IMG/VR virus record: IMGVR_UViG_3300025277_001374
Span: 1 to 35,151 of that record
Source: a virus
Taxonomy: Duplodnaviria; Caudoviricetes
Length of the DNA: 35,151 bases
Reading direction: 5' to 3' (one strand)
A program made the position numbers and the translations under genes. Position 1 is the stretch's first letter. Each line of letters opens with the position of its first letter. Under the pieces are notes generated by a model, which worked only from the letters and a program-made list of their open reading frames with translations, did no database searches and was not told where the DNA came from. Positions 8,189 through 34,671 of the stretch are shown piece by piece.

Positions 8189-11100
8189 TCAATTCGCTGT
8201 AGTCACGTTGCGTGGGATGAATCCCGATTTAGTAGTTCCGTATAACTGATTGAAAAATAGTTGCCCACGAGTTGTCTCGCCTTCATGATAGCCCCTGCCT
8301 CCATACCAGTAAACTAATAATGTATCTAAGTAAGGGAATCCTCTCTGGGCGGATTCTTGTGCGATTAGCATCTTTCTCCTGGTAGTACGAACTTTCCGTA
8401 ACGAATCAATATGAGGGTTCGCATCTACATACGCATTCTTTTGTGCCATATTAGGCAAGGCGTTATATTGATCCCATTGCTGCTGAAGTGCAGCAGAGGG
8501 ATTACTCGTTAACTTGCTAACATCCTTCCCTATGTTCCAGTAAGTAGATAGATACCTGCGGGCGTTATCATACTTTGTCTCTGTCTCAGACATACTAGCC
8601 TGTAGTTCCCGGATGAAGTCAGCGTATACATTGTTTCCTTTAGCCTCAGAGGAAATTCGCATTTTATCCAGGAACTCATCTCTAATCTGATAGAACTTTA
8701 CCCAGTCAGCAGATTCAGGGTGATCTCCTTCAGGCTCAATCGCGTAGTAACGTGCGATTAAGAGTTGCGTTCCTTGCCTTGTATCCTTTATCTGTCCCGC
8801 TGCTGTGTATAAAGACTCGTAATAAGCATCCCTGGCATCATCATCCATAGCGTGAACAGAACGATCATATACTTCGGCAAGAGCCATCTTCATTCCCATT
8901 CGCTTATAAATTTTCTTCTTACGTTCTTCTATCCACTTAGTAGGATCAATACCAGTAGTATTATCTTTCCTCCACTTATCAAGTTCCCCATCGAGTCTTT
9001 GCTGCTCAAACCTTAACTTGTCATTAACCTGCCTTGAAATGATAGCCGCGTCACGAATCTCCTTGGTAGAAATCTCAGGGAACGCTTCTTCCGTTTCCCT
9101 TCGTGCCATCTGCGCCAGTCCACCTCCACGCGCGGTAAAGTCAGAATCCTTATCAGCAGCCCCTGGAGAATAAGCGTTCATAAGTTTCGTAATGAACGGG
9201 AGTTTCAGGCGTGGTCTGCGAATCTCTTTCTGGAACTGTTCATAGTCTTTCGCATCAAGGTTAGTTACAAACTCTGTCCTGCTCGTCCGGTCCATCTCCC
9301 GGTACTCTGCTACTCGTTCCTCCATAGGTCTTGCTTCTTCTTCACGGAAACTATCCAGCATACGAACAAGATAATCAGCCATAGTTAAGGCTTCCTGTCC
9401 TACCCCACCTGTAGCACTCGTGAAGAAATGCTCTGCTCTCTTTGGGCTACTTATTCGATTCTTGATCCAGTCGGGTAGATCCGTATCATATACAGCCTGG
9501 GCAGCCCTGATTGAAGCCTCGGAGCTACGAGTATCATATTGCTCTGGAGGAAGTTCATCTCTCAATCCAAGCCCAACAACAGGCTGATCACGGAACACAT
9601 CCTGACCAGTTCTAACTTCATACAGATATCTTGCTAATTCCGGCACCGGGATACCCTCACCCAGAGGAGACTGCTCCTTGTATAAGTTATAAGCAAAAGT
9701 TTTCAAGTCAACTGGCACCTCGTTGTGCAAGTGATCAACCATAAAAGTCACAGGCTGAAACACCATGTTCCAATCACGCAACCTGTGAGGAATAACAAGG
9801 TATCTAAGTTTTGGTCTTTTAGTCGTTACGTCAAAGATGTACTCACCGTCCTCGTTCTTTGGAGGAGGCAGCATAATAATTATAGAATTGTTTCTGACAT
9901 ATTCAGGAACATCATAATATAGAGGAATTCCGTCATATTCCCATTGTTTATTCCATGACATCTGTATGAAAGCATAAACACTTGTCGCAGCACCCACGCG
10001 CAACGCAACCGACTTCGGTCCACCCAGATCCGTCCTAAAAGCCCCGGCAGTTCCTGTTTCAAATGCCTTTCCCGGTGAGCCGACACCAGCCCTAAACATG
10101 CCCTTCCCAGGTTCAAGGAACTGATACTTGGGAACGCTCTCGTGAGAAACCCGAAGACCCTTAAAAGGTCCTTCTTCAATAAGATTAGTTGTTTCGTTAA
10201 CTTTATATTGCCTCATTTTTACTTTAGGCAACAGATTGATTCCCATTGCGCGGAACGGGTATTTCATGCCTTCCATAGTAGCATTCAGAAACAGAATATA
10301 ACTATTCAGTTCCCTGATCATATCGCCACCACGCCCGAAGTCCAGAGTAGATTGCACTCCAGCTATCGAAGCTGCTTTTGCTTCAGCCGAGTCAATTAAT
10401 CCTACTCCTGTCTTGTTCCAGTTGGTATGTAGCTCATACTCCCAGTCACGCTGATCGAGTTTCATCAGGCGTTTCCACTCTGCTTTGCCTTCTTTATCTC
10501 CGAGCCTGTTTCTTAACCCCCTCCTAAAAGATTTACGTGCAATCACGTAACGAACTGACTGCTCTGCAAGTGTACCCGCCGCAGGAACAGTCTTCCATAC
10601 CTTTATCCCCGCCAGATACTTGCTATCTTTCCATGTCTGATTATCGATACCCATCATTTCCTTTGCTGAATCTTTTATCATTTTTTCTATTTCCGCTTGC
10701 CGTCCGGGTCCTTCTAGTGCCTTTACTATTTTGGCATCGTGCCGAGAGTCTGTAACGGCTTTAGAAAGTTTTCGATACTGATCTGGAGTAGGATCAAATA
10801 CCCTGGCTAGCATTCCACCACTACCCGTGAATATCTGCTCGAATCGATCCTCTGTCTTGAAAGCTATGTTTGCCGCGCTCTTTGCGAGCCTTTGCAAACT
10901 CTCATGAGGAACTTTTAATCCGGCAACCATTGTGCCAGTAAACATATCGATGAATTGGTTCTTAACAATAAAGACAGGGCTAAACGTAGTTAACGCTCCT
11001 CTGAAGAATCCGTTTGACATTGCTAATGTATTCTTTAGAAATCCCCTTGAACCTACTCCCCGAACAGCTAAAGCACCACGCCCGTATATCGTATTCCAAA

Positions 11101-14059
11101 GAGTCGGACTAACCGCACCACCCGCTTCATTTGCCGCGAAAACCATTCGTTCACCCTCGCGGAAGAACGTAATCACTCCTGATTTCATATCCTCATTGTA
11201 TCCAGGAAGATCCACCTCATCGAATTTATATTTAGGCTCCGGTCTTTTCGCGCCCGTCGCAATAACATACTGGTTCTTGTTCCCTACGGGCTTACTGAGA
11301 ATCCCCTCGTCAACCAACTTGTCCACAATAACTCTAATCTCTTTATCACCTGCTTTAATGTCATCAATCAGTAATTGTCCCTTAATACGTCCGAGTCCAA
11401 CCGTAGTTTCCCCTGGGTCTATCCGTAGCACTTTTGACACAGTGTCATAAACATGACTATCGTCAACAATCGTTTTAGTAAACTTACTGCTTACATTAAC
11501 TAAACCGTGTTCCTCAAACAAACCCATCTCAAAGAGATCGTTCAGCAAATCATTCTCAGCAGCACGCATCTCGTCTGCCATCAAATGTTTCAGCATGATC
11601 TCTCCAGTTATTGGCTTTGCTGTATAACCGATATCCTCAACCCCCTCTATTGGGATAGCAGCAAACTCATCCCATGCTCCCTTGGATAACGCGGGACCTC
11701 CACGCGCACCAGGACGGAGTAATCCGCTTCTGGTTGACGCTGCTTCTATGTAAGACATCGGCATATACCACGGCTCTCTTATCAACCTGCCTCTGGGTGT
11801 CGGTTCTAGTTTTTCCATAATCTTATTGTAACGAATAACAAGAGCATCAATCCGTTCACGAGCAGCAGCACGGGCAGCATCATCTGTCGCTCCCGCTCGT
11901 TCAAACAAGGTATTGGCTCGTTTGATTGCGTCAGGTCTTGCATTTGTAGCAGGAGCTTTCTGCAATATTCTGCGTTCTGCGTTAGTCGCTGCCTGATAGT
12001 TGTCCCATAGCTGCTTTATCTGATCAGTCTCATTGGCAGCCATTTCCGCTATCTCCTCATCTACCATGTCATATTGCTCGAAGAATTCCCTGGAAATAAC
12101 TTTGCTCTCAAACTGCCTGCGTCTTGACATTCTCATCATGTCCCGTGTGTCCCTTGCCACATCCTCAAGCCAGTCCAACTGATCCTGTGTATACTTCTTA
12201 AATAAATCAGATCCTTCGCTCACATCAGTCCATCTCTTAATCATCTCTTTATCGACCAGGACTCCCTGCTCATTTATAAGTTTCCCAGCCTCATCAAATT
12301 CATAGTCTAAGAATCTCAGAGGTCCGCGTCCCGGAACCAACGGATCTACTTGTTTCCATGCGTCATTTTCGTCATATAGATAACCTGCGCGTTTCGCAAA
12401 CACGTAACGATCAATATCGAGCCTCTTAATACCACCCTGGGACACCGCGGGGTCCAGACTGTTTTTTAGGTAATTAGCAAAGAATATCGGTGCCTTCATC
12501 TTCGCTCCCGCAGCAAGACGCCCCTTGGTCACAACGTCAAACTTGCCACCTGGCTCAAAGATTTTACCCTTAACTATCACATTAGAACGCCAGAAGTTCT
12601 CCTGAAGATTAGTCAACAAGAATTGCCCGTTGTGAAACTTGTTCATGAATACGATATAACTGTCTGCCGCTCTACCTGTATTCATTCTCTGCACAAAAGG
12701 AACCTTGCCACTAAGTTCCGTAGTTAACCTGGCAAAGCTATCCAGCATTTGAGTAGTTGTTTGTTTTGCCATAGCTATAGGATTCAACCATTTACTAGAC
12801 TCTAATCCATCAGTCACTACAGAGCTTGCAGGATCACTCGATGCTTTAGGTCCTATAGTTTCAGGAAGTATTTTGTTATCAGGAGGAGCTACCCGCCTAC
12901 CGGCAGGAGGAGGAACAGCAGGAGCATCAGTCGCAAGATCAGCAGCCGCCTCTTCAACTCGCCGCAGGTCTATATCTGCTTCGTCAAGCCTACCTAACAC
13001 TTTAGCACCCGCTGACACATTAGCCTTTGGATTTTCCCTTAGTTGATTATCCGCAGTCAGGGCAAACCTGTCAGTTATGCCCGTGGTAGTTGTTTTCGCG
13101 TAAGCCATGTTAGCATTCTTCAATACCTCTTCAGGAGGAATCCCTTCTTTAATTGCCGCTGTACCCTCAGAACGTAAATAATTGGTATGCTGACGAAGTA
13201 AGCCCCAGTCAGCAGTCTTCCTTCCTAAAGGTGCGGCAATAGCACCCACTCCTCTACCCAAACCTCTGGCTGGTACTGAAATAGCTTTCATTGCTGCACG
13301 TTCAGCAATATCTAAAGGTTTCAGTGCTGCTTCACCTACCTTTAAGGCACCTCTTGCCGCTGCTGCAACTCCAGGAGCCTGTCTTGTAAGTGTGCCTGTA
13401 GGTTGGAACCGACCCGCTCCTTCAACCCCTTTTGCTATCCTTGCTCCAGCAGGTCCAAGCATCTTCCCTGCCCGTGTTGCTGCCAAAGCTCCTCTTGCTA
13501 CTCCCGCAGGTGGAAATAAAAAGTAAGGGAATTCTTCTAAAGTTCCACGCATAAATGGAGGTAACTTATAAAGTTCCTCTCCAACCTGCCTGACCTCTGT
13601 CTTTGAAAGAGGACGACCTAACTCCTGATACTTCTGGTATAGAGCTTTTTCTATATTCGCGTAACGCCTTGTTCCGGGTGCAGCATATATAGGATCTCGC
13701 CTGCTTGTTTCATACGGAGCATACGGTCCGGGCAAAGTAGCAATATTGTGCCTAATCGCACTTGGTAGAAACTTCCCTTCGGGTGTTACCCACGCATCTG
13801 GCTTCCATGCGAAGTTAAATGCACCGGGTCCCGGCTCCCACCTAACAGGTAATGACTGGGTTAACCCTTCAACTATAGGAGCGAGGGCTTCCTGTTTCAG
13901 GAACTCGAAAGGAGCAGCAAGTTTTTCAATCCCTGCGGTAGCTCCCCGCACAGCAGGACCCAAGAAGCTAGCCCAGACGCTAGGGTCTTGCACGACTTGT
14001 TGAGCCGCCTGTTCAGCAGCTATCCGTGCTGCTTCGCTAGGGAATCGTGGCGTAGTCAT
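8189..14059 (-). CDS. Large internal virion/DNA ejection protein with an LPD38-like region
   Basis: 1956 aa; TLDFGRGG...LNSYILFLNATMEG...YYDVPEYVRNNSIII...IP pattern resembles LPD38-containing ejection proteins. Confidence 0.65.
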   Translation of the reverse strand: MTTPRFPSEAARIAAEQAAQQVVQDPSVWASFLGPAVRGATAGIEKLAAPFEFLKQEALAPIVEGLTQSLPVRWEPGPGAFNFAWKPDAWVTPEGKFLPSAIRHNIATLPGPYAPYETSRRDPIYAAPGTRRYANIEKALYQKYQELGRPLSKTEVRQVGEELYKLPPFMRGTLEEFPYFLFPPAGVARGALAATRAGKMLGPAGARIAKGVEGAGRFQPTGTLTRQAPGVAAAARGALKVGEAALKPLDIAERAAMKAISVPARGLGRGVGAIAAPLGRKTADWGLLRQHTNYLRSEGTAAIKEGIPPEEVLKNANMAYAKTTTTGITDRFALTADNQLRENPKANVSAGAKVLGRLDEADIDLRRVEEAAADLATDAPAVPPPAGRRVAPPDNKILPETIGPKASSDPASSVVTDGLESSKWLNPIAMAKQTTTQMLDSFARLTTELSGKVPFVQRMNTGRAADSYIVFMNKFHNGQFLLTNLQENFWRSNVIVKGKIFEPGGKFDVVTKGRLAAGAKMKAPIFFANYLKNSLDPAVSQGGIKRLDIDRYVFAKRAGYLYDENDAWKQVDPLVPGRGPLRFLDYEFDEAGKLINEQGVLVDKEMIKRWTDVSEGSDLFKKYTQDQLDWLEDVARDTRDMMRMSRRRQFESKVISREFFEQYDMVDEEIAEMAANETDQIKQLWDNYQAATNAERRILQKAPATNARPDAIKRANTLFERAGATDDAARAAARERIDALVIRYNKIMEKLEPTPRGRLIREPWYMPMSYIEAASTRSGLLRPGARGGPALSKGAWDEFAAIPIEGVEDIGYTAKPITGEIMLKHLMADEMRAAENDLLNDLFEMGLFEEHGLVNVSSKFTKTIVDDSHVYDTVSKVLRIDPGETTVGLGRIKGQLLIDDIKAGDKEIRVIVDKLVDEGILSKPVGNKNQYVIATGAKRPEPKYKFDEVDLPGYNEDMKSGVITFFREGERMVFAANEAGGAVSPTLWNTIYGRGALAVRGVGSRGFLKNTLAMSNGFFRGALTTFSPVFIVKNQFIDMFTGTMVAGLKVPHESLQRLAKSAANIAFKTEDRFEQIFTGSGGMLARVFDPTPDQYRKLSKAVTDSRHDAKIVKALEGPGRQAEIEKMIKDSAKEMMGIDNQTWKDSKYLAGIKVWKTVPAAGTLAEQSVRYVIARKSFRRGLRNRLGDKEGKAEWKRLMKLDQRDWEYELHTNWNKTGVGLIDSAEAKAASIAGVQSTLDFGRGGDMIRELNSYILFLNATMEGMKYPFRAMGINLLPKVKMRQYKVNETTNLIEEGPFKGLRVSHESVPKYQFLEPGKGMFRAGVGSPGKAFETGTAGAFRTDLGGPKSVALRVGAATSVYAFIQMSWNKQWEYDGIPLYYDVPEYVRNNSIIIMLPPPKNEDGEYIFDVTTKRPKLRYLVIPHRLRDWNMVFQPVTFMVDHLHNEVPVDLKTFAYNLYKEQSPLGEGIPVPELARYLYEVRTGQDVFRDQPVVGLGLRDELPPEQYDTRSSEASIRAAQAVYDTDLPDWIKNRISSPKRAEHFFTSATGGVGQEALTMADYLVRMLDSFREEEARPMEERVAEYREMDRTSRTEFVTNLDAKDYEQFQKEIRRPRLKLPFITKLMNAYSPGAADKDSDFTARGGGLAQMARRETEEAFPEISTKEIRDAAIISRQVNDKLRFEQQRLDGELDKWRKDNTTGIDPTKWIEERKKKIYKRMGMKMALAEVYDRSVHAMDDDARDAYYESLYTAAGQIKDTRQGTQLLIARYYAIEPEGDHPESADWVKFYQIRDEFLDKMRISSEAKGNNVYADFIRELQASMSETETKYDNARRYLSTYWNIGKDVSKLTSNPSAALQQQWDQYNALPNMAQKNAYVDANPHIDSLRKVRTTRRKMLIAQESAQRGFPYLDTLLVYWYGGRGYHEGETTRGQLFFNQLYGTTKSGFIPRNVTTAN

Positions 14060-20887: not shown

Positions 20888-21325
20888 AACACCTACCTCC
20901 AAATCATTACTAAGCCAGTAGAGTGGCTCTCCGTTTAACACCACAAGATACCATAAATGCCTTCCCATGCAAACAAACTTATAGAAATGTTCTTCTCTTT
21001 TACGCATCGCATACTCCCAAGATCGCTTGCCAAGTGTCCTGTCATTACATCCGTTAATAGGGCAGTCCATGAAATAGAAAACACGATCCAGCTTCTTCCT
21101 GGTCTGATACAGCAGAGTTATTACGGCTCCGCTTACGCCCCTGTGTTTCGGGTTCGCTCCACGGTAGGGCAAATAGAATCTATCAGCGTAAGGAACGTGA
21201 CCTGTAAGTTTCTTCAAGGGAGGGATCACATATTCAGTCCACCCACATGTAATACAACTAAAGCCATCTAAATCTTTTTTTGCGAGTTTTTTACATCTCG
21301 GACAAATTTTCGATAACATTTGCAT
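20786..21325 (-). CDS. Zn-ribbon/Cys-rich protein with an in-frame basic C-terminal tail
   Basis: CPRC...CITCG, CPINGC and C..RH.W motifs; first long ORF of the virion operon. Confidence 0.6.
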   Translation of the reverse strand: MQMLSKICPRCKKLAKKDLDGFSCITCGWTEYVIPPLKKLTGHVPYADRFYLPYRGANPKHRGVSGAVITLLYQTRKKLDRVFYFMDCPINGCNDRTLGKRSWEYAMRKREEHFYKFVCMGRHLWYLVVLNGEPLYWLSNDLEVGVMPKVGKKRYKTVSGAKKAAKKTGKKLVMTRKKY

Positions 21326-21329
21326 CGCC

Positions 21330-21473
21330 CTATGGTAGCATGACGGCGCAAGGAGAGGTAATCAGATTACGGACCTGTCTCCGTTTCGACCACCTCCAGA
21401 AACGTCTGATCTGCACTAAACTGGATTTCTCCTTGCAACAGCACAGAACCCGTGCTAAACTAATCTTATTCAT
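21330..21473 (-). CDS. Possible 47-aa leader peptide upstream of the virion operon
   Basis: TTCAAACAATCC...CTAGGAGAATAGAAC-ATG; MNKISLARVLCCCKEKSSLVQIRRFWRWSKRRQVRNLITSPCAVMLP*; stop 4 nt before ATG 21325. May only be the antisense shadow of the sRNA. Confidence 0.3.
   Translation of the reverse strand: MNKISLARVLCCCKEKSSLVQIRRFWRWSKRRQVRNLITSPCAVMLP
21433..21461 (+). promoter_or_regulatory. Sigma70-type promoter for the putative sRNA
   Basis: TTGCAA-17 bp-TAAACT with extended -10 TGn; likely +1 near A21468. Confidence 0.65.
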
Positions 21474-21585
21474 GTTCTATTCTCCTAGTGTAAAACATGG
21501 ATTGTTTGAAGAGAAAAACCTGCTCGTATCCTTAAGATTATTTGGTCGTAATGTATAGGAACAACCACGGGCAGGTCTTTCTTTT
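21468..21585 (+). ncRNA. Putative multi-target antisense small RNA
   Basis: Upstream promoter; 5' hairpin with anti-SD loop UUCUCC; linker GGAUUGUUUGAA (21499-21510) complementary to three leaders; 3' stem 21518-21527/21567-21576 followed by a U-rich tail. Confidence 0.6.
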
Positions 21586-21717: not shown

Positions 21718-21966
21718 TTATGAATTTGATCTTTCTTGTTTGATCTTTCTAGCCTCGTCTCTGGCTGATTGAATTTCAGCTTTAGACTGAACAAAACTTT
21801 CCAGGTAATCGATTAAGTCAGATTTCCTAACCCTCCGGTTCCCTCCGATCTTGAGACTTATCAATTCACCATCCAAAATTAAACTCCAAATTTTCGTCTT
21901 ACTCATGCCCGTGTATTCTTGAATCTCTCCTACGGTGAGAAGGTCAATTAGTGTGTCTGATACCAT
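21718..21966 (-). CDS. HTH_17/excisionase-like (MerR-type) DNA-binding protein
   Basis: Start moved to MVSDT (SD AAGGAGG); LLTVGEIQEYTGMSKTKIWSLI..GEL.SLKIG.NRRVRKSDL is the HTH_17 pattern. Confidence 0.8.
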   Translation of the reverse strand: MVSDTLIDLLTVGEIQEYTGMSKTKIWSLILDGELISLKIGGNRRVRKSDLIDYLESFVQSKAEIQSARDEARKIKQERSNS

Positions 21967-22001
21967 TTGGTTTTCCTCCTTATGGAAACTATTATGTTGA
22001 T

Positions 22002-22030
22002 ACACTAGCATCCATCCCATACAATGTGAA
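22002..22030 (-). promoter_or_regulatory. Leftward promoter for the HTH gene
   Basis: Minus strand TTCACA-17 bp-TAGTGT with TGn extension. Confidence 0.45.
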
Positions 22031-22070
22031 TGTATCGATATCTGATCACTAAAACTAAGTATCAGATACA
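22031..22070. promoter_or_regulatory. Operator-like GTATC/GATAC inverted repeats between divergent promoters
   Basis: GTATCAGATAC (22059-22069); TATCTGAT (22039)/ATCAGATA (22061); TGTATC (22031)/GATACA (22065). Confidence 0.5.
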
Positions 22071-22071
22071 C

Positions 22072-22100
22072 TTGACAACTCCCTTTTTTACAATTAAAAT
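22072..22100 (+). promoter_or_regulatory. Near-consensus sigma70 promoter
   Basis: TTGACA-17 bp-TAAAAT. Confidence 0.75.
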
Positions 22101-22118
22101 CAAAATCCCAAACACACT

Positions 22119-22262
22119 GTTACTTGTAACTAGTAACTAGTCTCAGTAACTAAGAAGTACCTAGTATGTAATAGTAACTGTAACTGTTACTAGTAACTAG
22201 TTACTGCTTCTGTCTACTTTCTTGAAACTTCCTACTGTAATTACAGGAACTGTTACTGTTAC
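22119..22262. repeat. Cluster of 11 GTAAC/GTTAC pentamers in both orientations
   Basis: Copies at 22119, 22126, 22133, 22146, 22174, 22180, 22186, 22193, 22200, 22252, 22258; palindromes GTTACTAGTAAC (22186) and AGTAACTAGTTACT (22192). Confidence 0.85.
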
Positions 22263-22349
22263 CTGATTCTGTTCATAGAGTCCCTTTTTCTAGAATCTAA
22301 TCGTAGACGGGTATCCTGCCTTCATTAACTTGGTTGCTAAGGGATAGGG

Positions 22350-22565: not shown

Positions 22566-22741
22566 CCTGTGTGCGACGTCAAAATCGCGCCTACCACAAG
22601 CCACGTAGAGAGCCACGCCACAGAATGCGCACGTTAGCGAGTCTCTGAGATTCCGAGCGGTGTGCGTGGATGCGGTGTTTATCGTAGCAAATGCGCTTCA
22701 AAATCGACTGATTCATGCATCAATTTTAGTCAATTAATGTA

Positions 22742-22770
22742 TTGTGTAAGTCTGCACGTTCTGGTAAAAT
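22742..22770 (+). promoter_or_regulatory. Early promoter 1
   Basis: TTGTGT-17 bp-TAAAAT with TGn; followed by a 10-bp hairpin (22779-22802), TTCAAACAATC and the SD. Confidence 0.65.
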
Positions 22771-22831
22771 TAAGTCATGGGATTGAAAATTGTTTCAGTC
22801 TCAAAAATTCAAACAATCGGGAGGATAGAGA

Positions 22832-23092
22832 ATGGATATTTCCACAGTAGACCAAGACACGAGGGAACTACGAATAGTTCGCACATTTGATGAGGCGTAT
22901 AACTACATTACGCACAGACTGCCGCCAGGATCATTTGTGTTGGCATTAGTAGAGAAAGATTATGACGGGGCAATCGCTGCAGCTGATAGCGTTTCAATTG
23001 AATTGCTACCTGAATTGATCGAGACAGTTGAGCGGGCTAAAGATCTTCATAGGTCCCAAATTAAGAACTATACTTTTGAGGTGATAGCATGA
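22832..23092 (+). CDS. Hypothetical early protein
   Basis: 86 aa, SD GGAGG. Confidence 0.7.
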   Translation: MDISTVDQDTRELRIVRTFDEAYNYITHRLPPGSFVLALVEKDYDGAIAAADSVSIELLPELIETVERAKDLHRSQIKNYTFEVIA

Positions 23093-23457
23093 TACGCACA
23101 TACGGACGGAACACGAAGCACACAAGGTTGACGCTCGGAGAATCGAAACAACTCCGAAAGCTTGCGCAAAATGTTGATACATTAGCCCAATTGACTGATA
23201 GCACCGGATTAGATGAAAAACAATTCCAAGCTGTATTGTTTGAATTAGGGCTAGATCTCACGAAAATGCTAACGCTCCTGGAAAACAAGATTGACGGTCA
23301 ATCTCTATCAGTTGCGGGTGTGTCTAGCGGTGATCTGAAATTACCCGAAGGTATGAAAAGTACTTATAATTCCTTCGAATGGGTAGATCAATCCAATTGG
23401 CAACACCTTCAAGTTTCAGAAATTGAATTCGACACAGAAAACGGAAATTCCTACTGA
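23089..23457 (+). CDS. Hypothetical early protein (stop codon inside the ribozyme core)
   Basis: 122 aa, SD GAGGTG, ATGA overlap. Confidence 0.7.
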   Translation: MIRTYGRNTKHTRLTLGESKQLRKLAQNVDTLAQLTDSTGLDEKQFQAVLFELGLDLTKMLTLLENKIDGQSLSVAGVSSGDLKLPEGMKSTYNSFEWVDQSNWQHLQVSEIEFDTENGNSY

Positions 23458-23505
23458 AGAGACTTAGATAGTCGAAACTAGGGGCGTAAGTCCCTAGTCT
23501 AGGAA
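23448..23505 (+). ncRNA. Type I hammerhead ribozyme
   Basis: Stem I TTCCTA/TAGGAA; core CTGAAGA (23454-23460); stem II GAC-ttagata-GTC; GAAA; stem III CTAGGGGC-GTAA-GTCCCTAG; GUC cleavage triplet, cut after C23499. Confidence 0.93.
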
Positions 23506-23550
23506 AGTTTCAAACAATCCTTAAAATCTTAAATCTAGGAGTGAAAGAAT

Positions 23551-24297
23551 ATGGTTACACTATTGAAAACGCGCGGGCTACGTCCCGAAATTAGAACGGC
23601 TAATACTGTCGCGATGCAGTTTAAAAGTGAGCTTGACGGTGAGTCAATTGTGGCGTTGTTTACGGGGCTACAGAAAAACTCACAGAATAAAAAACTAGGT
23701 AGCATGGTTACGGTATATATCCTGGTAGATAATGGCAAAACGCCCCAACAAAACGCGTCAAGCGGGGCGGATAAGTCTATATGCGGTGATTGTGCTTTAC
23801 GTAACAACATTTGCTACGTTGTTAAAATTCATGGTCCAGCAGCGGTGTATCGTGGGTACTTAAATGGCAAAAGTCCCGTTGTTAGTGAATCCGAATTAAT
23901 CGCCTTGTTGATTGATCGCAATTACTCAATCCGTTGGGGCGAATATGGTGACGTTGCAGCTTTACCGTTTGAGTTTGTTGATAACGTGATGAAAAAAACG
24001 GGATTACCTCACACGTCCTATAGTCACCAGTGGGATAATGAAAATTTTGATGATCGACATTTTAATTACTCGATGGCGTCAATTGACCACGTGAAAACGT
24101 TGCCATTACTCCAGGCGTTGCATGGTGACGATGTTCGTTACTATCGTATGGACGCGGACGGTGATAACTTGCTACCTGGTGAGATTCGTTGTCCTAATAA
24201 AGACAAGGACGGCAATACTCAAGTTCAATGTCGTGATTGCTTACTGTGTCAGGGGACCACCAAACAAGCTAAAAATATTGTTGAATTAATTATATAG
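23551..24297 (+). CDS. Gp88-like (radical-SAM-related) Cys-rich phage protein
   Basis: S.NKKLG, ICGDCALRNNICYV, IRWGEYGD, YSH.W, ASID and IRCP...CRDCLLC motifs. Confidence 0.65.
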   Translation: MVTLLKTRGLRPEIRTANTVAMQFKSELDGESIVALFTGLQKNSQNKKLGSMVTVYILVDNGKTPQQNASSGADKSICGDCALRNNICYVVKIHGPAAVYRGYLNGKSPVVSESELIALLIDRNYSIRWGEYGDVAALPFEFVDNVMKKTGLPHTSYSHQWDNENFDDRHFNYSMASIDHVKTLPLLQALHGDDVRYYRMDADGDNLLPGEIRCPNKDKDGNTQVQCRDCLLCQGTTKQAKNIVELII

Positions 24298-24339
24298 GGG
24301 GGGTGATTAATTAAGATCTTAACAACTAAATAATAAATT

Positions 24340-24372
24340 AGTGCTTAGTTACTTAGTGACTAGGCACTTTTT
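24340..24372 (+). terminator. Intrinsic terminator
   Basis: 13-bp stem AGTGCTTAGTTAC-tta-GTGACTAGGCACT (2 G-U) followed by a T-run. Confidence 0.8.
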
Positions 24373-24764
24373 GCGTACGTTTTGGAAGTAGGGTAGGGAA
24401 CTACGATACACAAGCGCAATTGCTACGGGTGATCAAGTTCAATAGGTTGACGCCTTGACTCTTGCGTGCGTGTAACGTGTTCACCTTGTTGGCTTGATGT
24501 TTGTGAGCGTGTGAGTTTGACGGTAAAAATTGCTTGCCCGTAGAGCAACGAAACAATAGCGATTGATACAATCCTATTGCTTAACAATTACAAGGGGCTT
24601 AAACCTACACACCTATTTATAGAACATATAATCCAAACATTAGTACACAGGTTGCATCGACTCAAAAAAGGAACCAAGCTTATCAATATTCGTTCTTGTC
24701 CGCCCGCGACCGCGATCCTCTGCTCCCCTACCCTACCACGCTGAGACTATTTTGATACTGAGGG

Positions 24765-24793
24765 TTGTAATTAGACATCACCTGTGCTAGTAT
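24765..24793 (+). promoter_or_regulatory. Early promoter 2
   Basis: TTGTAA-17 bp-TAGTAT with TGn; TTCAAACAATC at 24805; SD AAGGAGG. Confidence 0.65.
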
Positions 24794-24837
24794 ACACATA
24801 TAGATTCAAACAATCATAACCACAAGGAGGTTTAATC

Positions 24838-31841: not shown

Positions 31842-32328
31842 ATATAAAGTAAAGATTACCCGTGTCGTTGACGGTGACACAGTGGACGCTGAAGTTGACC
31901 TGGGCTTTGATACCTTTATCAAAGACAGGATCAGACTCATGGGCATAGATACTCCTGAGTCCAGAACCCGTAACAAGAAAGAGAAGGCACTTGGCTTGGC
32001 TGCCAAGGCTCGTCTGAAAGAAATCCTAAAGGAGAACAAGGGTAATATAATTCTACGCACCTCTAAGGAAGGAAAGGGAAAATTCGGACGGATACTTGGA
32101 GGACTACTTATTCTTGATAGAGAGAGCGGGCATCTGACTAGTATTAACCAGATGCTCGTAGATCAAGGATATGCGAGGTGGTACTTTGGCGGGAACAAAG
32201 CTGAACAAGGTGAGTGGACAAAAGAAGAAGGCGATTGTAACTGCGGTGGAAGGAAAGCACGACTGAGTCAATGTACTGGAACATGGTTTCGTTGGACACA
32301 AGACGGCTACGTAGAGATAGAGGAGTAG
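31834..32328 (+). CDS. Thermonuclease (SNase-like)
   Basis: MYEY...RVVDGDTVD..VDLGF, RIRLMGIDTPESRTR and KGKFGRILG. Confidence 0.9.
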   Translation: MYEYKVKITRVVDGDTVDAEVDLGFDTFIKDRIRLMGIDTPESRTRNKKEKALGLAAKARLKEILKENKGNIILRTSKEGKGKFGRILGGLLILDRESGHLTSINQMLVDQGYARWYFGGNKAEQGEWTKEEGDCNCGGRKARLSQCTGTWFRWTQDGYVEIEE

Positions 32329-32331
32329 ATT

Positions 32332-32532
32332 ATGGCAGGATTCCCAAAAAACCTTAAGTTTTATTCACTAACTGAAACTCAGGACATACTTGGAGTCGGT
32401 CGTTCAAAACTTTGGAAAATGCTGAATGTAGATCAGGTTATCCCTAGTTACAGAATTGGCAGAAAAGTGCGAGTAAAGCATGAAGACCTAGAAGAGTTCA
32501 TGAATTCATGCTTAAAAAAATCTAAGGAGTAG
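32332..32532 (+). CDS. HTH_17/excisionase-like DNA-binding protein
   Basis: YSLTETQDILGVGRSKLWKML...IPSYRIGRKVRVKHEDLEEF. Confidence 0.8.
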   Translation: MAGFPKNLKFYSLTETQDILGVGRSKLWKMLNVDQVIPSYRIGRKVRVKHEDLEEFMNSCLKKSKE

Positions 32533-32535
32533 ATT

Positions 32536-32994
32536 ATGGTAGTTAAAGAAAATTTATCAGCAGAGGAAATGGCAGAAGACTTAGTTGAGTTCTTAGCCAC
32601 GCAATTTAATGCAGGGTCAGGTGGCTGTACGTTTATAGAACTTCAGCGCAGATACGGCTCTCAAATGAAAGGAGATATTAGACTGGCTATTGACAATGCT
32701 GTGCTTTGGAGTGACCTTTCAGAAAAGTTTTGTGATGCGTTTGATAAGCTAGGAATCATGGATAAAGAGAGGGAACTAGGGTTAAAAGAAAAGAGGGCGC
32801 ACCTACATCCTGTCCAGACCCAATTAGGTGGAATCCCGTTACCTTATCTTCTTGAAGGAGTTAGTATGTCGTTGCCCATAGCCAAAACAACAAAAGATTA
32901 CAAGAGCGAAAAACTTCATTGGTTTCCCGTACTGTTTTACGGCAATAGCAAATGCCCTAAAGGGACTAAAGGGTGTCCAGAGATAGAGGAGTAG
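32536..32994 (+). CDS. Hypothetical protein
   Basis: 152 aa bounded by junction repeats. Confidence 0.7.
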   Translation: MVVKENLSAEEMAEDLVEFLATQFNAGSGGCTFIELQRRYGSQMKGDIRLAIDNAVLWSDLSEKFCDAFDKLGIMDKERELGLKEKRAHLHPVQTQLGGIPLPYLLEGVSMSLPIAKTTKDYKSEKLHWFPVLFYGNSKCPKGTKGCPEIEE

Positions 32995-32997
32995 ATC

Positions 32998-33720
32998 ATG
33001 CAAGAACGTATGAAAGAAGCCATGAAAGAAGCTAAGAAGGCTGTTGATAAAGAATTTATGGATGTTCATAAGGTTGAGGTATCAGGCAAAGAAGGAATGT
33101 TTGAAATCAGTGTACATATGGATATGAGTTCTGTTGATCCAAAGTATTATAATATAGCCCTTCCGATAGTGCCATGGGCTGAAGCGCATGACCATTTCGA
33201 TACAAAAGAGGTGGATGGCGTAGATATTATTCACCTTGAACACTCAACGCTTGCTGAGATTGCTCCTGATGCTCCGACAAAGTATCGCAGAGCCTTGGAG
33301 AAGATAGCATATTATATCAGAAGGGAAAATGGATACTCTTTCCCTCCTTACCATGTCGCAAAACCACAGGACGACGAAGGGAACAAAGATGCCATTTTCT
33401 TCTTATGGATAGGTAAAGATATTTACACTATCCAGAGTGATGCAAAAGCATTTATGACAGGTAGTTTTTCACGTGGACTTAGAGGAAGAGTCTACGGAGC
33501 ATGTGTCTTCAGACCGGCTCCAACAGAGGATAACAGGGATTCCGTAGCCAGCCACTACTTAGATTGGATATGGATTCATCCATACGCACGAGGCGAAGGA
33601 ATCACCCATGAGGCATGGTCTTACTTTGAGGAAAGGTTTGGTAAATTTGGAGTAACAACACCAGTAACCAAAGCGATGGTTGGATTCTTAACGAAGAGAG
33701 GTTGGTTAAAAGAGGAGTAG
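32998..33720 (+). CDS. GNAT-family acetyltransferase (Eco1/ESCO-like motif A)
   Basis: YGACVFR...LDWIWIHPYARGEGIT...TPVTKAMVGFL. Confidence 0.7.
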   Translation: MQERMKEAMKEAKKAVDKEFMDVHKVEVSGKEGMFEISVHMDMSSVDPKYYNIALPIVPWAEAHDHFDTKEVDGVDIIHLEHSTLAEIAPDAPTKYRRALEKIAYYIRRENGYSFPPYHVAKPQDDEGNKDAIFFLWIGKDIYTIQSDAKAFMTGSFSRGLRGRVYGACVFRPAPTEDNRDSVASHYLDWIWIHPYARGEGITHEAWSYFEERFGKFGVTTPVTKAMVGFLTKRGWLKEE

Positions 33721-33722
33721 AT

Positions 33723-33983
33723 ATGAAAGTAGTAGAAAGAACAATCCAAGTAAGTGATGTGTATGATAGTAAAAATAATTTAATGGAAGACAAAAACCCG
33801 TTACGATTACTTTATCTTGACCTATACGGAACTGTGAGAAATGCAAGGAATCCTAGAGTGGGTATGGACGCAACAAACACCATTTGCAATGCGCTGATAA
33901 AAAAGTATGGTCCGCTTTGGATAGATAAGGAATTATTAATAAAAATGGAAGACATGAAAAAAGGAGAAGTGGATTATGATTGA
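33723..33983 (+). CDS. Hypothetical protein
   Basis: Start moved to MKVVERT after the junction repeat. Confidence 0.65.
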   Translation: MKVVERTIQVSDVYDSKNNLMEDKNPLRLLYLDLYGTVRNARNPRVGMDATNTICNALIKKYGPLWIDKELLIKMEDMKKGEVDYD

Positions 33984-34305
33984 CTTAAAAGACAAGTATT
34001 TCCATATATATAAATGGAACGCAGAAGAAAAGAGGACAAAGATTAACAGACAAGGATGGGTTAGGGATTACGACCCTGAACAACACATCGCTCTTGTGCA
34101 TTTTTTTAATTTCCTTGATGGTGACCAATCTCCGCAACAATATCTTAAAAAGGTTACAGAGGACTGGGTATTTTATGATACGGATGACGAAATGAATGAG
34201 GCTTATCTGGAGAGCCAGAGACTGAGCAAGGATGACGAAGACTGGGCGAGAAAAACCAGAGAGTCTAGGAAAAAATGGATAGAAGAAAATGCGATAGAGG
34301 AGTAG
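33976..34305 (+). CDS. Hypothetical protein
   Basis: 109 aa, SD AAGGAG, ends IEE*. Confidence 0.7.
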   Translation: MIDLKDKYFHIYKWNAEEKRTKINRQGWVRDYDPEQHIALVHFFNFLDGDQSPQQYLKKVTEDWVFYDTDDEMNEAYLESQRLSKDDEDWARKTRESRKKWIEENAIEE

Positions 34306-34308
34306 ATT

Positions 34309-34488
34309 ATGCCAACACGAAATGAACTAGCAACTCAAGATGCAGAATTTGATACTGCACCGTCTATAGAAGATTCACTAATGGAAATGGAAGAAGGGGA
34401 TATCTTATTGTGGCGTGAACTTAAAGCAATAAAATATGTCTTGGCAGACATTTCAACGCATCTATCAAAGATAGCTGACAAGGAGTAG
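34309..34488 (+). CDS. 59-aa hypothetical acidic protein
   Basis: Below the track cutoff. MPTRNELATQDAEFD...LSKIADKE*, bounded by junction repeats. Confidence 0.7.
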   Translation: MPTRNELATQDAEFDTAPSIEDSLMEMEEGDILLWRELKAIKYVLADISTHLSKIADKE

Positions 34489-34491
34489 ATT

Positions 34492-34671
34492 ATGCAAATA
34501 GGAAAGCTAAGACCACAGATACTAACCGCCATCCTGTGTGCGACTATATTCAGTATAGTGACCGTAGTAGTGGGATTGCAGATGGGAGCTATAGAAGTCA
34601 TCACCGCAATTATCGGTGGAATCTTTGGCTTCTTAGGTGGCGTGTCGCTCAAGGTTCTTGAGAACGAGTAA
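34492..34671 (+). CDS. 59-aa two-TM membrane protein (holin-like topology)
   Basis: MQIGKLRPQILTAILCATIFSIVTVVVGLQMGAIEVITAIIGGIFGFLGGVSLKVLENE*. Confidence 0.7.
   Translation: MQIGKLRPQILTAILCATIFSIVTVVVGLQMGAIEVITAIIGGIFGFLGGVSLKVLENE

What the first reader, a model, noticed from the sequence alone, without database searches (positions are those of the whole stretch)
23444..23519. Hammerhead ribozyme containing the upstream stop codon and releasing the Gp88-like mRNA
Seen: a complete type I hammerhead (CUGAAGA core, GAAA, GUC triplet, GNRA-capped 8-bp stem III, extendable stem I). The UGA of the core is the stop codon of ORF 23089-23457, so terminating ribosomes would cover the catalytic core. 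Cleavage after C23499 gives a 5'-OH RNA starting UAGGAAAGUUUCAAACAAUCC, with the leader 11-mer ~10 nt from the new 5' end, much as in the promoter-2 leader. Phage hammerheads are known. Inference: this one creates a third regulated 5' end in place of a promoter, and cleavage may depend on upstream translation, which the sRNA could control.
Basis: partly seen in the sequence, partly recalled or inferred. Interest (0 to 1): 0.85.

Follow-up and report, generated by a model that had tools for sequence, protein, structure and literature searches.

The report
Phage hammerhead beside small-RNA target
A phage gene ends on a stop codon inside a textbook hammerhead RNA motif that is predicted to cut the next gene loose, a common layout in phages; here the freed message also carries a tag that a predicted phage small RNA would bind, likely to switch that gene off.

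Summary
The hammerhead is real: full type I consensus at 23448-23505, none in 300 shuffles, kept in a sister phage with two compensatory stem II pairs. Its core UGA is the stop of a real gene. That overlap is ordinary: in 108 of 121 phage hammerhead clusters the upstream stop lies within -20..+14 of the core (27 at the core UGA, none past the cut), and the sister phage stops in loop II. This scan noted the habit before on other DNA. Best reading: a mostly unregulated processing cassette, with the small RNA blocking translation of the product, which RNase J of the likely Dehalococcoidia host would then degrade. Modelling has the small RNA restoring stem I (0.11 to 0.79), but 53 of 120 other hammerheads look equally misfolded in that model, so gated cleavage stays unproven (about 20%). 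No cleavage or transcript was observed.

The parts
23448..23505 (+). Type I hammerhead motif (stem I 23448-53/23500-05, core 23454-60, stem II 23461-73, GAAA 23474-77, stem III 23477-98, predicted cut after C23499)
23455..23457 (+). UGA of the core = stop codon of the upstream ORF
23089..23457 (+). Upstream ORF, 122 aa, no Pfam or PHROG family; 33 homologs with swappable C-terminal tails
22832..23092 (+). First ORF of the unit, 86 aa; its stop overlaps the start of ORF 23089
22742..22770 (+). Predicted promoter 1 (-35, 17 nt, extended -10)
   Evidence: relaxed scan; not listed by the stricter scan
22808..22818 (+). 11-mer tag, leader 1
23509..23520 (+). 11/12-mer tag, 9 nt after the predicted cut
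23535..23553 (+). Shine-Dalgarno (23537-41) and start codon of the downstream gene; second and third predicted pairing sites for the small RNA
23551..24297 (+). Downstream gene, 248 aa, Cys-rich, phrog_2554 / DUF7227-like, distant relative of mycobacteriophage L5 gp88
24340..24375 (+). Intrinsic-terminator-like hairpin and U run closing the unit
24765..24815 (+). Predicted promoter 2 (24765-93) and tagged leader 3 (24805-15)
21433..21461 (+). Predicted promoter of the small-RNA unit; a similar site is kept in relatives
21468..21585 (+). Candidate small RNA, about 118 nt: 5' hairpin with anti-AUG, anti-SD loop (21482-88) and anti-tag (21499-21510), then a hairpin and U run; no credible Rfam match

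Best explanation
This is a canonical type I hammerhead motif grafted onto the end of an early phage gene, and it likely cuts the three-gene transcript after C23499 whenever no ribosome is sitting on it, so that the Gp88-like gene would get its own message, with a predicted small RNA likely acting on that message's translation rather than on the cut. Steps. (1) Shown: motif, stop overlap, tag, SD and start codon in that order, a terminator behind the gene. (2) Inferred: the stop sits in the core because the cassette is packed against the gene end and the stop must come before the cut (a message cut before its stop would strand ribosomes); the invariant UGA is a free stop. (3) Inferred: the cut leaves the upstream piece capped by stems II and III and the downstream piece with a 5'-OH end. 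(4) Inferred: the likely host class has RNase J and RNase Y and no RNase E/G, so the 5'-OH piece would be a 5'-to-3' decay substrate, as with glmS, unless a ribosome at the SD or the small 5' hairpin shields it. (5) Predicted: the 21468-21585 RNA pairs with tag, SD and start codon of this and two other early leaders, blocks initiation and so would let the cut message be cleared quickly.
For: Motif and covariation: (38 of 38 cells paired, 2 compensatory pairs in 2 sequences). Layout is general: 108 of 121 called clusters stop at -20..+14, 27 at the core UGA, 13 further inside, 0 past the cut; non-ribozyme CUGANGA control 4 of 84 at +1 and 38 of 84 read past. Cassette behaviour: sister phage has the same ribozyme behind an unrelated gene; the upstream protein family is conserved up to a fixed point and then has six kinds of tail, 16 of 34 the one written by the ribozyme strand; relatives hold a pistol-like match, a type III hammerhead motif, hairpins or a small pseudoknot between early genes. 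Processing of phage polycistrons by hammerheads was shown in vitro and in E. coli (PMC3088659, section 6). Host: 24 of 24 capsid matches in genomes are Dehalococcoidia/Chloroflexota; RNase J and Y in 5 of 5, RNase E/G in 0 of 5 genomes tested. Small RNA: unit in five lineages; top 3 of 39 window leaders are the tagged ones (-18.7, -17.4, -13.8 kcal/mol; next -11.2); the L278 unit binds 19 of 19 of its own leaders better than the window's unit does.
Against: No cleavage, transcript or 5' end was observed. The motif scores below both Rfam gathering thresholds and no loop-loop contact could be assigned. In the folding model stem I is outcompeted once the tag is transcribed (0.73 to 0.10 in the window, 0.91 to 0.01 in L002), which, if real, would make cleavage conditional. 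Covariation rests on two genomes. The match between the window's RNA and its tags is how the RNA was found, so it is not independent; the L305 unit shows no preference for its own leaders, the L330 unit scores as well as L278's own on L278 leaders in duplex-only energies, and no early region was available for L330 or L335. Host assignment rests on capsid similarity of 45-78%.
Confidence: 0.55

Rival explanations
1. Gated cleavage. Ribosomes terminating on the core, and a downstream hairpin formed by the tag, hold the ribozyme off. The small RNA switches it on twice: by silencing leader 1, which stops translation of the two coupled upstream ORFs, and by pairing with tag and SD, which frees both strands of stem I. 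The cut, ribosome-free message is then degraded.
For: Cofolding restores stem I from 0.11 to 0.79 (window) and 0.01 to 0.87 (L277 = L002 contig). The competing hairpin forms in both phages; in L002 only 5 of 300 linker shuffles misfold as badly. Both stop positions (core, loop II) would put a terminating ribosome on the ribozyme. A 1997 paper title reports an influence of translating ribosomes on an engineered cis-cleaving ribozyme (PMC147047; title seen in a reference list only).
Against: 53 of 120 surveyed hammerheads fall to 0.11 or lower in the same model, and 16 of the 58 that fold well when short collapse the same way; window shuffles do as badly in 52 and 86 of 300. 5'-end hairpins on cut products are not enriched (39 of 123 against 31% in shuffles). 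Blocking the tag alone does not rescue the window's fold (0.14). The model ignores core and tertiary stabilisation. The upstream gene and the stop position change freely.
Confidence: 0.2
2. Plain insulator cassette and no small RNA: the ribozyme cuts constitutively and the 11-mer is only an A/C-rich translation leader that the phage has copied between genes; the reversed copy at 21500 is a fourth leader on the minus strand.
For: A/C-rich linkers follow most phage hammerheads (51% A; AAC in 100 of 123). On the minus strand the copy is followed by an SD, a start codon and a 47-codon frame, and relatives keep an SD and ATG there. A fifth copy flanks an inserted gene in L002.
Against: The 47-codon frame is not conserved (frame change in L305). 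A promoter-like site before and a hairpin with a run of 8 U after point in the + direction in L278, L305 and L335. The late operon appears to have its own promoter downstream of that frame, 6 nt before its first ATG in all 14 sequences shown.
Confidence: 0.15
3. The ribozyme is trapped or decayed in vivo and no longer cuts at a useful rate.
For: Predicted competing folds; no tertiary contact assigned; below Rfam thresholds.
Against: All core bases and all 19 pairs kept, with compensatory changes, while flanks diverge; Perreault et al. found such phage motifs active.
Confidence: 0.07

Closest known systems
Hammerheads flanking genes in prophages and phages (Perreault et al. 2011, PMC3088659; passages and section 6 read)
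   Same: Canonical core, between genes of a phage transcript, neighbouring genes not constant; proposed there to cut long transcripts into operon- or single-gene messages.
   Different: Single copy in this window, not a cluster. The paper's main text has no occurrence of 'stop codon' or 'ribosome'; a small-RNA target next to the cut is not described in the parts read.
Type I hammerhead, Rfam RF00163; RAGATH-1-hammerhead, RF03152
   Same: Core, GAAA, GUC and three stems align.
   Different: Below both gathering scores; longer stem III than RF00163; 4-bp stem II and no proper 5' hairpin, unlike the RAGATH-1 consensus.
glmS ribozyme / RNase J1 (PMC10907184 and bioRxiv 10.1101/2023.03.12.532304; passages read)
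   Same: Self-cleavage ahead of a gene leaves a 5'-OH end that RNase J1 degrades; the likely host here has RNase J.
   Different: Different ribozyme class, metabolite-gated; here no ligand site, and the fate of the product is untested.
C4 antisense RNA of phages P1/P7 (RF01695; table row and reference title seen in PMC2864571; mechanism recalled)
   Same: A phage RNA acting in trans on the phage's own messages by short complementary boxes.
   Different: No Rfam match to C4; here a two-hairpin unit mirrors tag, SD and start codon of three separate leaders.
Engineered sRNA-sensing 'regazymes' (PMC4446421; abstract and passages)
   Same: An sRNA restores the active fold of a ribozyme by strand displacement, as in rival 1.
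   Different: Synthetic; a natural case was not found in my searches and is not shown here.

Membership tests
Type I hammerhead | Core C3-U4-G5-A6-N7-G8-A9 | tested here: met
   23454-60; only N7 differs in L002
Type I hammerhead | G12-A13-A14-A15.1 and an NUH triplet | tested here: met
   23474-77 and GUC 23497-99, identical in L002
Type I hammerhead | Stems II and III closed by loops, stem I open | tested here: met
   6, 4 and 9 pairs, all kept in both genomes, 2 compensatory
Type I hammerhead | Tertiary contact between loop II and stem I or its 3' tail | tested here: inconclusive
   By eye only a weak 3-4 bp pairing of loop II with the bases after stem I, in different register in the two phages
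Type I hammerhead | Site-specific self-cleavage | not testable with these tools
   Needs in vitro transcription or end mapping
Rfam RF00163 as curated | Score at or above gathering (34 bits) | tested here: not met
   30.2 bits, E 1.1e-4; 16 nt of stem III fall outside the model. Filed by consensus, not as an Rfam member
RAGATH-1-hammerhead RF03152 | Gathering score 56.3; 5' hairpin and one-pair stem II of the consensus | tested here: not met
   40.6 bits; 2 of 4 hairpin pairs non-standard; stem II has 4 pairs
Clustered phage hammerheads (PMC3088659) | Between genes of a phage transcript | tested here: met
   Capsid, terminase, portal matches; junction position
Clustered phage hammerheads (PMC3088659) | Several ribozymes in tandem | tested here: not met
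   One type I, no type II or III descriptor hit in the window
C4 antisense RNA RF01695 (for the small RNA) | Match to the covariance model | tested here: not met
   No C4 match at E up to 10
C4 antisense RNA RF01695 (for the small RNA) | Repression in trans by pairing | not testable with these tools
   Only predicted pairing
GP88, Pfam PF17338 (downstream protein) | Match to the profile | tested here: not met
   No hit at E up to 10, 0 of 14 aligned homologs; distant kinship only: both hit phrog_2554, hhalign probability 65%, E 6e-5 over 73 columns
Radical SAM fold (downstream protein) | Partial TIM barrel with Fe-S cysteine motif | tested here: inconclusive
   Best Z about 4, rmsd about 5 to PFL activating enzyme and QueE; no Foldseek match at E 0.001

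The most novel reading that the evidence does not exclude
A natural RNA-gated hammerhead: one phage small RNA silences the upstream leader, clears ribosomes off the catalytic core, displaces an attenuating hairpin and covers the downstream SD, so that it both triggers self-cleavage and hands the 5'-OH message to RNase J, an all-RNA off switch for an early operon.
Probability: 0.2. Interest if true: 0.8.

Novelty: new member of a known kind. Interest (0 to 1): 0.45.

Why it matters
What phage hammerheads are for is still open (PMC6765202, passages). The motif and its stop overlap add little alone. This locus is useful because it is small and offers a natural pair (stop in the core against stop in loop II) plus a candidate trans-acting RNA whose predicted site begins 9 nt from the cut. 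One set of constructs can therefore test whether ribosomes or a small RNA gate a natural hammerhead, and whether the cut raises or lowers expression in an RNase J host. A positive result would be, as far as my searches reach, an undescribed natural control mode.

Tried and rejected
No RNA holder was listed for 22700-24400, so no reads were laid. A tie between the ribozyme and the Gp88-like family was rejected: of 80 distant loci a canonical type I motif lay directly upstream in 1 and downstream in 2, plus one core variant seen by eye; many loci had little upstream DNA. More close relatives were sought: only the L001 and L002 contigs carry the module among viral contigs and among 80 terminase loci, of which 16 reach 5 kb or more upstream; none in GenBank phages. 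The extended stem I is not kept in L002. My first reading of the reversed 11-mer as a fourth leader was weakened and is now rival 2. The tag is not a general companion of hammerheads (0 of 120 tag-pattern loci have one directly upstream). A crude terminator scan of 12 sequences for small-RNA units missed the window's own unit and gave clear leader matches only for L278. Terminase found no relative in genomes; the capsid did. A pattern search of the genome holding L611 gave 12 matches against 18 in the control, none followed up. Structure searches for the downstream protein were inconclusive. Weinberg et al. 2015 and Zhang et al. 1997 were not held; no supplement was read, and those of PMC3088659 and PMC5737381 may comment on stop overlap or list these motifs.

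Full report
Setting. The window is a 35,151-base virus record of a tailed phage: capsid, terminase and portal matches on the minus strand, small unknown genes and then replication genes on the plus strand. The capsid protein has relatives (45-78% identity) in 24 genome contigs, all 24 labelled Dehalococcoidia or Chloroflexota; the terminase found none. Five of those genomes were tested: RNase J and RNase Y in 5 of 5, RNase E/G in 0 of 5 (completeness not given).

The observation. The segment folds as a hammerhead, is the only descriptor hit in the window, and none arose in 300 shuffles. Rfam scores fall short of the gathering thresholds. The sister contig L002 (downstream protein 85% identical) keeps all core bases and all 19 pairs, with two compensatory changes in stem II and a GNRA-preserving loop change, while the DNA just upstream is unrelated. 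With two sequences the shuffle control is weak (118 of 500 reach the observed values).

The stop in the core. The upstream ORF is a real gene: 33 homologs at 67-97% identity. They are conserved up to a fixed point and then carry six kinds of tail: 16 of 34 end as the window does, in residues written by the ribozyme's 5' strand; 1 of 34 (P0045) has a tail that fits reading through the core in another frame; 17 of 34 have other tails whose DNA I could not see (one search found no new contig). In L002 an unrelated 61-aa gene reads through the core and stops in loop II. For a wider view I took type I motifs from two viral pattern scans (the second covered 7 of 64 parts of the collection, and both fix bases at the 3' end) and the other loci then held. 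Of 274 loci, 146 distinct motifs with at least 250 nt upstream formed 123 clusters, two of them this phage and L002. With one representative each and a heuristic gene caller, 121 had an upstream gene: stop further than 20 nt before the core 13, at -20..-7 57, at -6..0 11, at the core UGA 27, further inside 13, past the cut 0. Among genes that reach the core, 27 of 40 stop there, against one third by frame alone (p = 1e-5). Of 90 non-ribozyme CUGANGA sites on the same strands, 84 were called: 4 at +1, 38 read past. The next start codon follows the cut at a median of 28 nt (119 of 123). The layout stop, ribozyme, A-rich linker, SD, start is thus the rule. Tight packing plus the need to stop before the cut explains it without regulation, though it also means most of these ribozymes are brushed by terminating ribosomes. 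Earlier notes of this scan reached the same view on other DNA (seen after my survey).

A swappable slot. The ribozyme and the Gp88-like gene occur only in the L001 and L002 contigs among 80 terminase loci, 16 of which reach 5 kb upstream. Between early genes relatives carry a pistol-like match (L286, 32.7 bits against 34.5), a type III hammerhead motif (L308), GC hairpins or a small pseudoknot. Only 1 of 80 distant Gp88-like loci has a canonical motif directly upstream. This fits the processing role proposed and partly shown by Perreault et al. (PMC3088659) and called unresolved in PMC6765202 (passages). The unit here would run from promoter 1 to the terminator at 24340; no convincing promoter lies in front of the downstream gene.

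The tag and the small RNA. The 11-mer occurs four times where 0.03 are expected for a given word. I first read the reversed copy as a minus-strand leader. Against that: a promoter-like site precedes it on the plus strand (21433-61), and in the window and 13 loci, which make five sequence lineages, the same place holds a promoter-like site, a hairpin and a terminator hairpin with a U run on the plus strand, 72-118 nt, with an anti-SD loop in four of the five, while the late operon shows its own -10 element 6 nt before its first ATG. With opening costs the window's unit binds the three tagged leaders best of 39, pairing with tag, SD and start region. That match is partly circular. The independent part is L278, whose different unit has 9-10 nt matches at eight of its own ribosome sites and binds 19 of 19 own leaders better than the window's unit. 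L305 shows no such preference, L330's unit scores as well on L278 leaders in duplex-only energies, and L330 and L335 lack early DNA. I rate the RNA likely real and its repression of tagged leaders plausible but untested; similar units were noted by this scan in other phages.

Does it control the cut? In the model, stem I dominates until about 20 nt past the cut site are made; then the 3' strand pairs with the end of the tag, and in the window the freed 5' strand pairs with the SD. The small RNA reverses this in both phages. The control undercuts the inference: 53 of 120 surveyed hammerheads drop as low in the same context, and shuffled downstream sequence does as badly in 52 and 86 of 300 trials for the window (18 and 5 of 300 for L002). 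The model has no term for the core or tertiary contacts. So gating is possible and coherent, since silencing leader 1, freeing stem I and covering the SD all push towards loss of the message, but it is not shown.

Fate of the product. By analogy with glmS (PMC10907184; bioRxiv 10.1101/2023.03.12.532304; passages), a 5'-OH end in an RNase J host invites decay, so the cut may make the message easy to clear rather than 'release' it. A small hairpin over the new 5' end is predicted in both phages, but such hairpins are no commoner than chance in the survey. Ribosome shielding and the ribosome footprint are from general knowledge, not from a call.

The downstream protein is a Cys-rich phrog_2554 member with 151 matching GenBank phage records, the 20 listed without a named function, a distant relative but not a member of GP88; its fold is unresolved.

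Verdict. Observation confirmed, interpretation partly supported. A new member of a known kind, with a testable twist in the adjacent small-RNA target. I found no paper on stop overlap or small-RNA control of natural phage hammerheads in ten searches (listings and abstract starts only, apart from the papers named), but key subscription papers and all supplements were unseen. Interest 0.45; gated-cleavage case 20% likely, 0.8 if true.

Noticed in passing
window 21332-21461: Conserved non-coding element between two divergent promoter-like sites: an inverted repeat with inner stems that covary, matched in 15 of 80 terminase loci at 80-100%. The leftward -10 lies 6 nt before the ATG at 21325, suggesting a leaderless late message. 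Could be a DNA switch region or a structured RNA; no Rfam match.
   Followed up: partly
window 21468-21585; L278, L305, L330, L335 equivalents: Candidate family of phage small RNAs with an anti-SD loop; deserves its own study with longer contigs.
   Followed up: partly
L278, L317, L331, L333, L334 early regions; L474-L610: Small H-type pseudoknot 11-15 nt after stop codons, sometimes just before tRNAs; about 2900 stretches estimated in viral contigs, 71 clusters in the sample, P1 of 3-7 pairs; no Rfam hit, no paper hit. Absent from the window. Earlier scan notes call it coremin-like (not tested by me).
   Followed up: partly
L286 3664-3737 (-); L308 early region; L093 upstream of match: Pistol-like match just under threshold, a type III hammerhead motif, and a type I motif with a changed core base.
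   Followed up: no
L002 2183-2470: A 77-aa gene inserted after leader 1, followed by a further copy of tag plus SD.
   Followed up: partly
window 32300-34500: A second repeated leader word (SD plus spacer, four exact copies of several 11-mers) ahead of a later block of plus-strand genes.
   Followed up: no
window 21718-22071 (-): HTH_17 / excisionase-like gene present in the window, absent from L002; no integrase match among the 44 ORFs scanned.
   Followed up: no
window 22107-22330: Long non-coding stretch of short GTAAC/GTTAC repeats behind a near-consensus promoter (22072-22100), with weak matches in relatives; possibly a genome end or origin.
   Followed up: no
window 8189-14059 (-): 1956-aa protein with an LPD38 domain in the virion module.
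   Followed up: no
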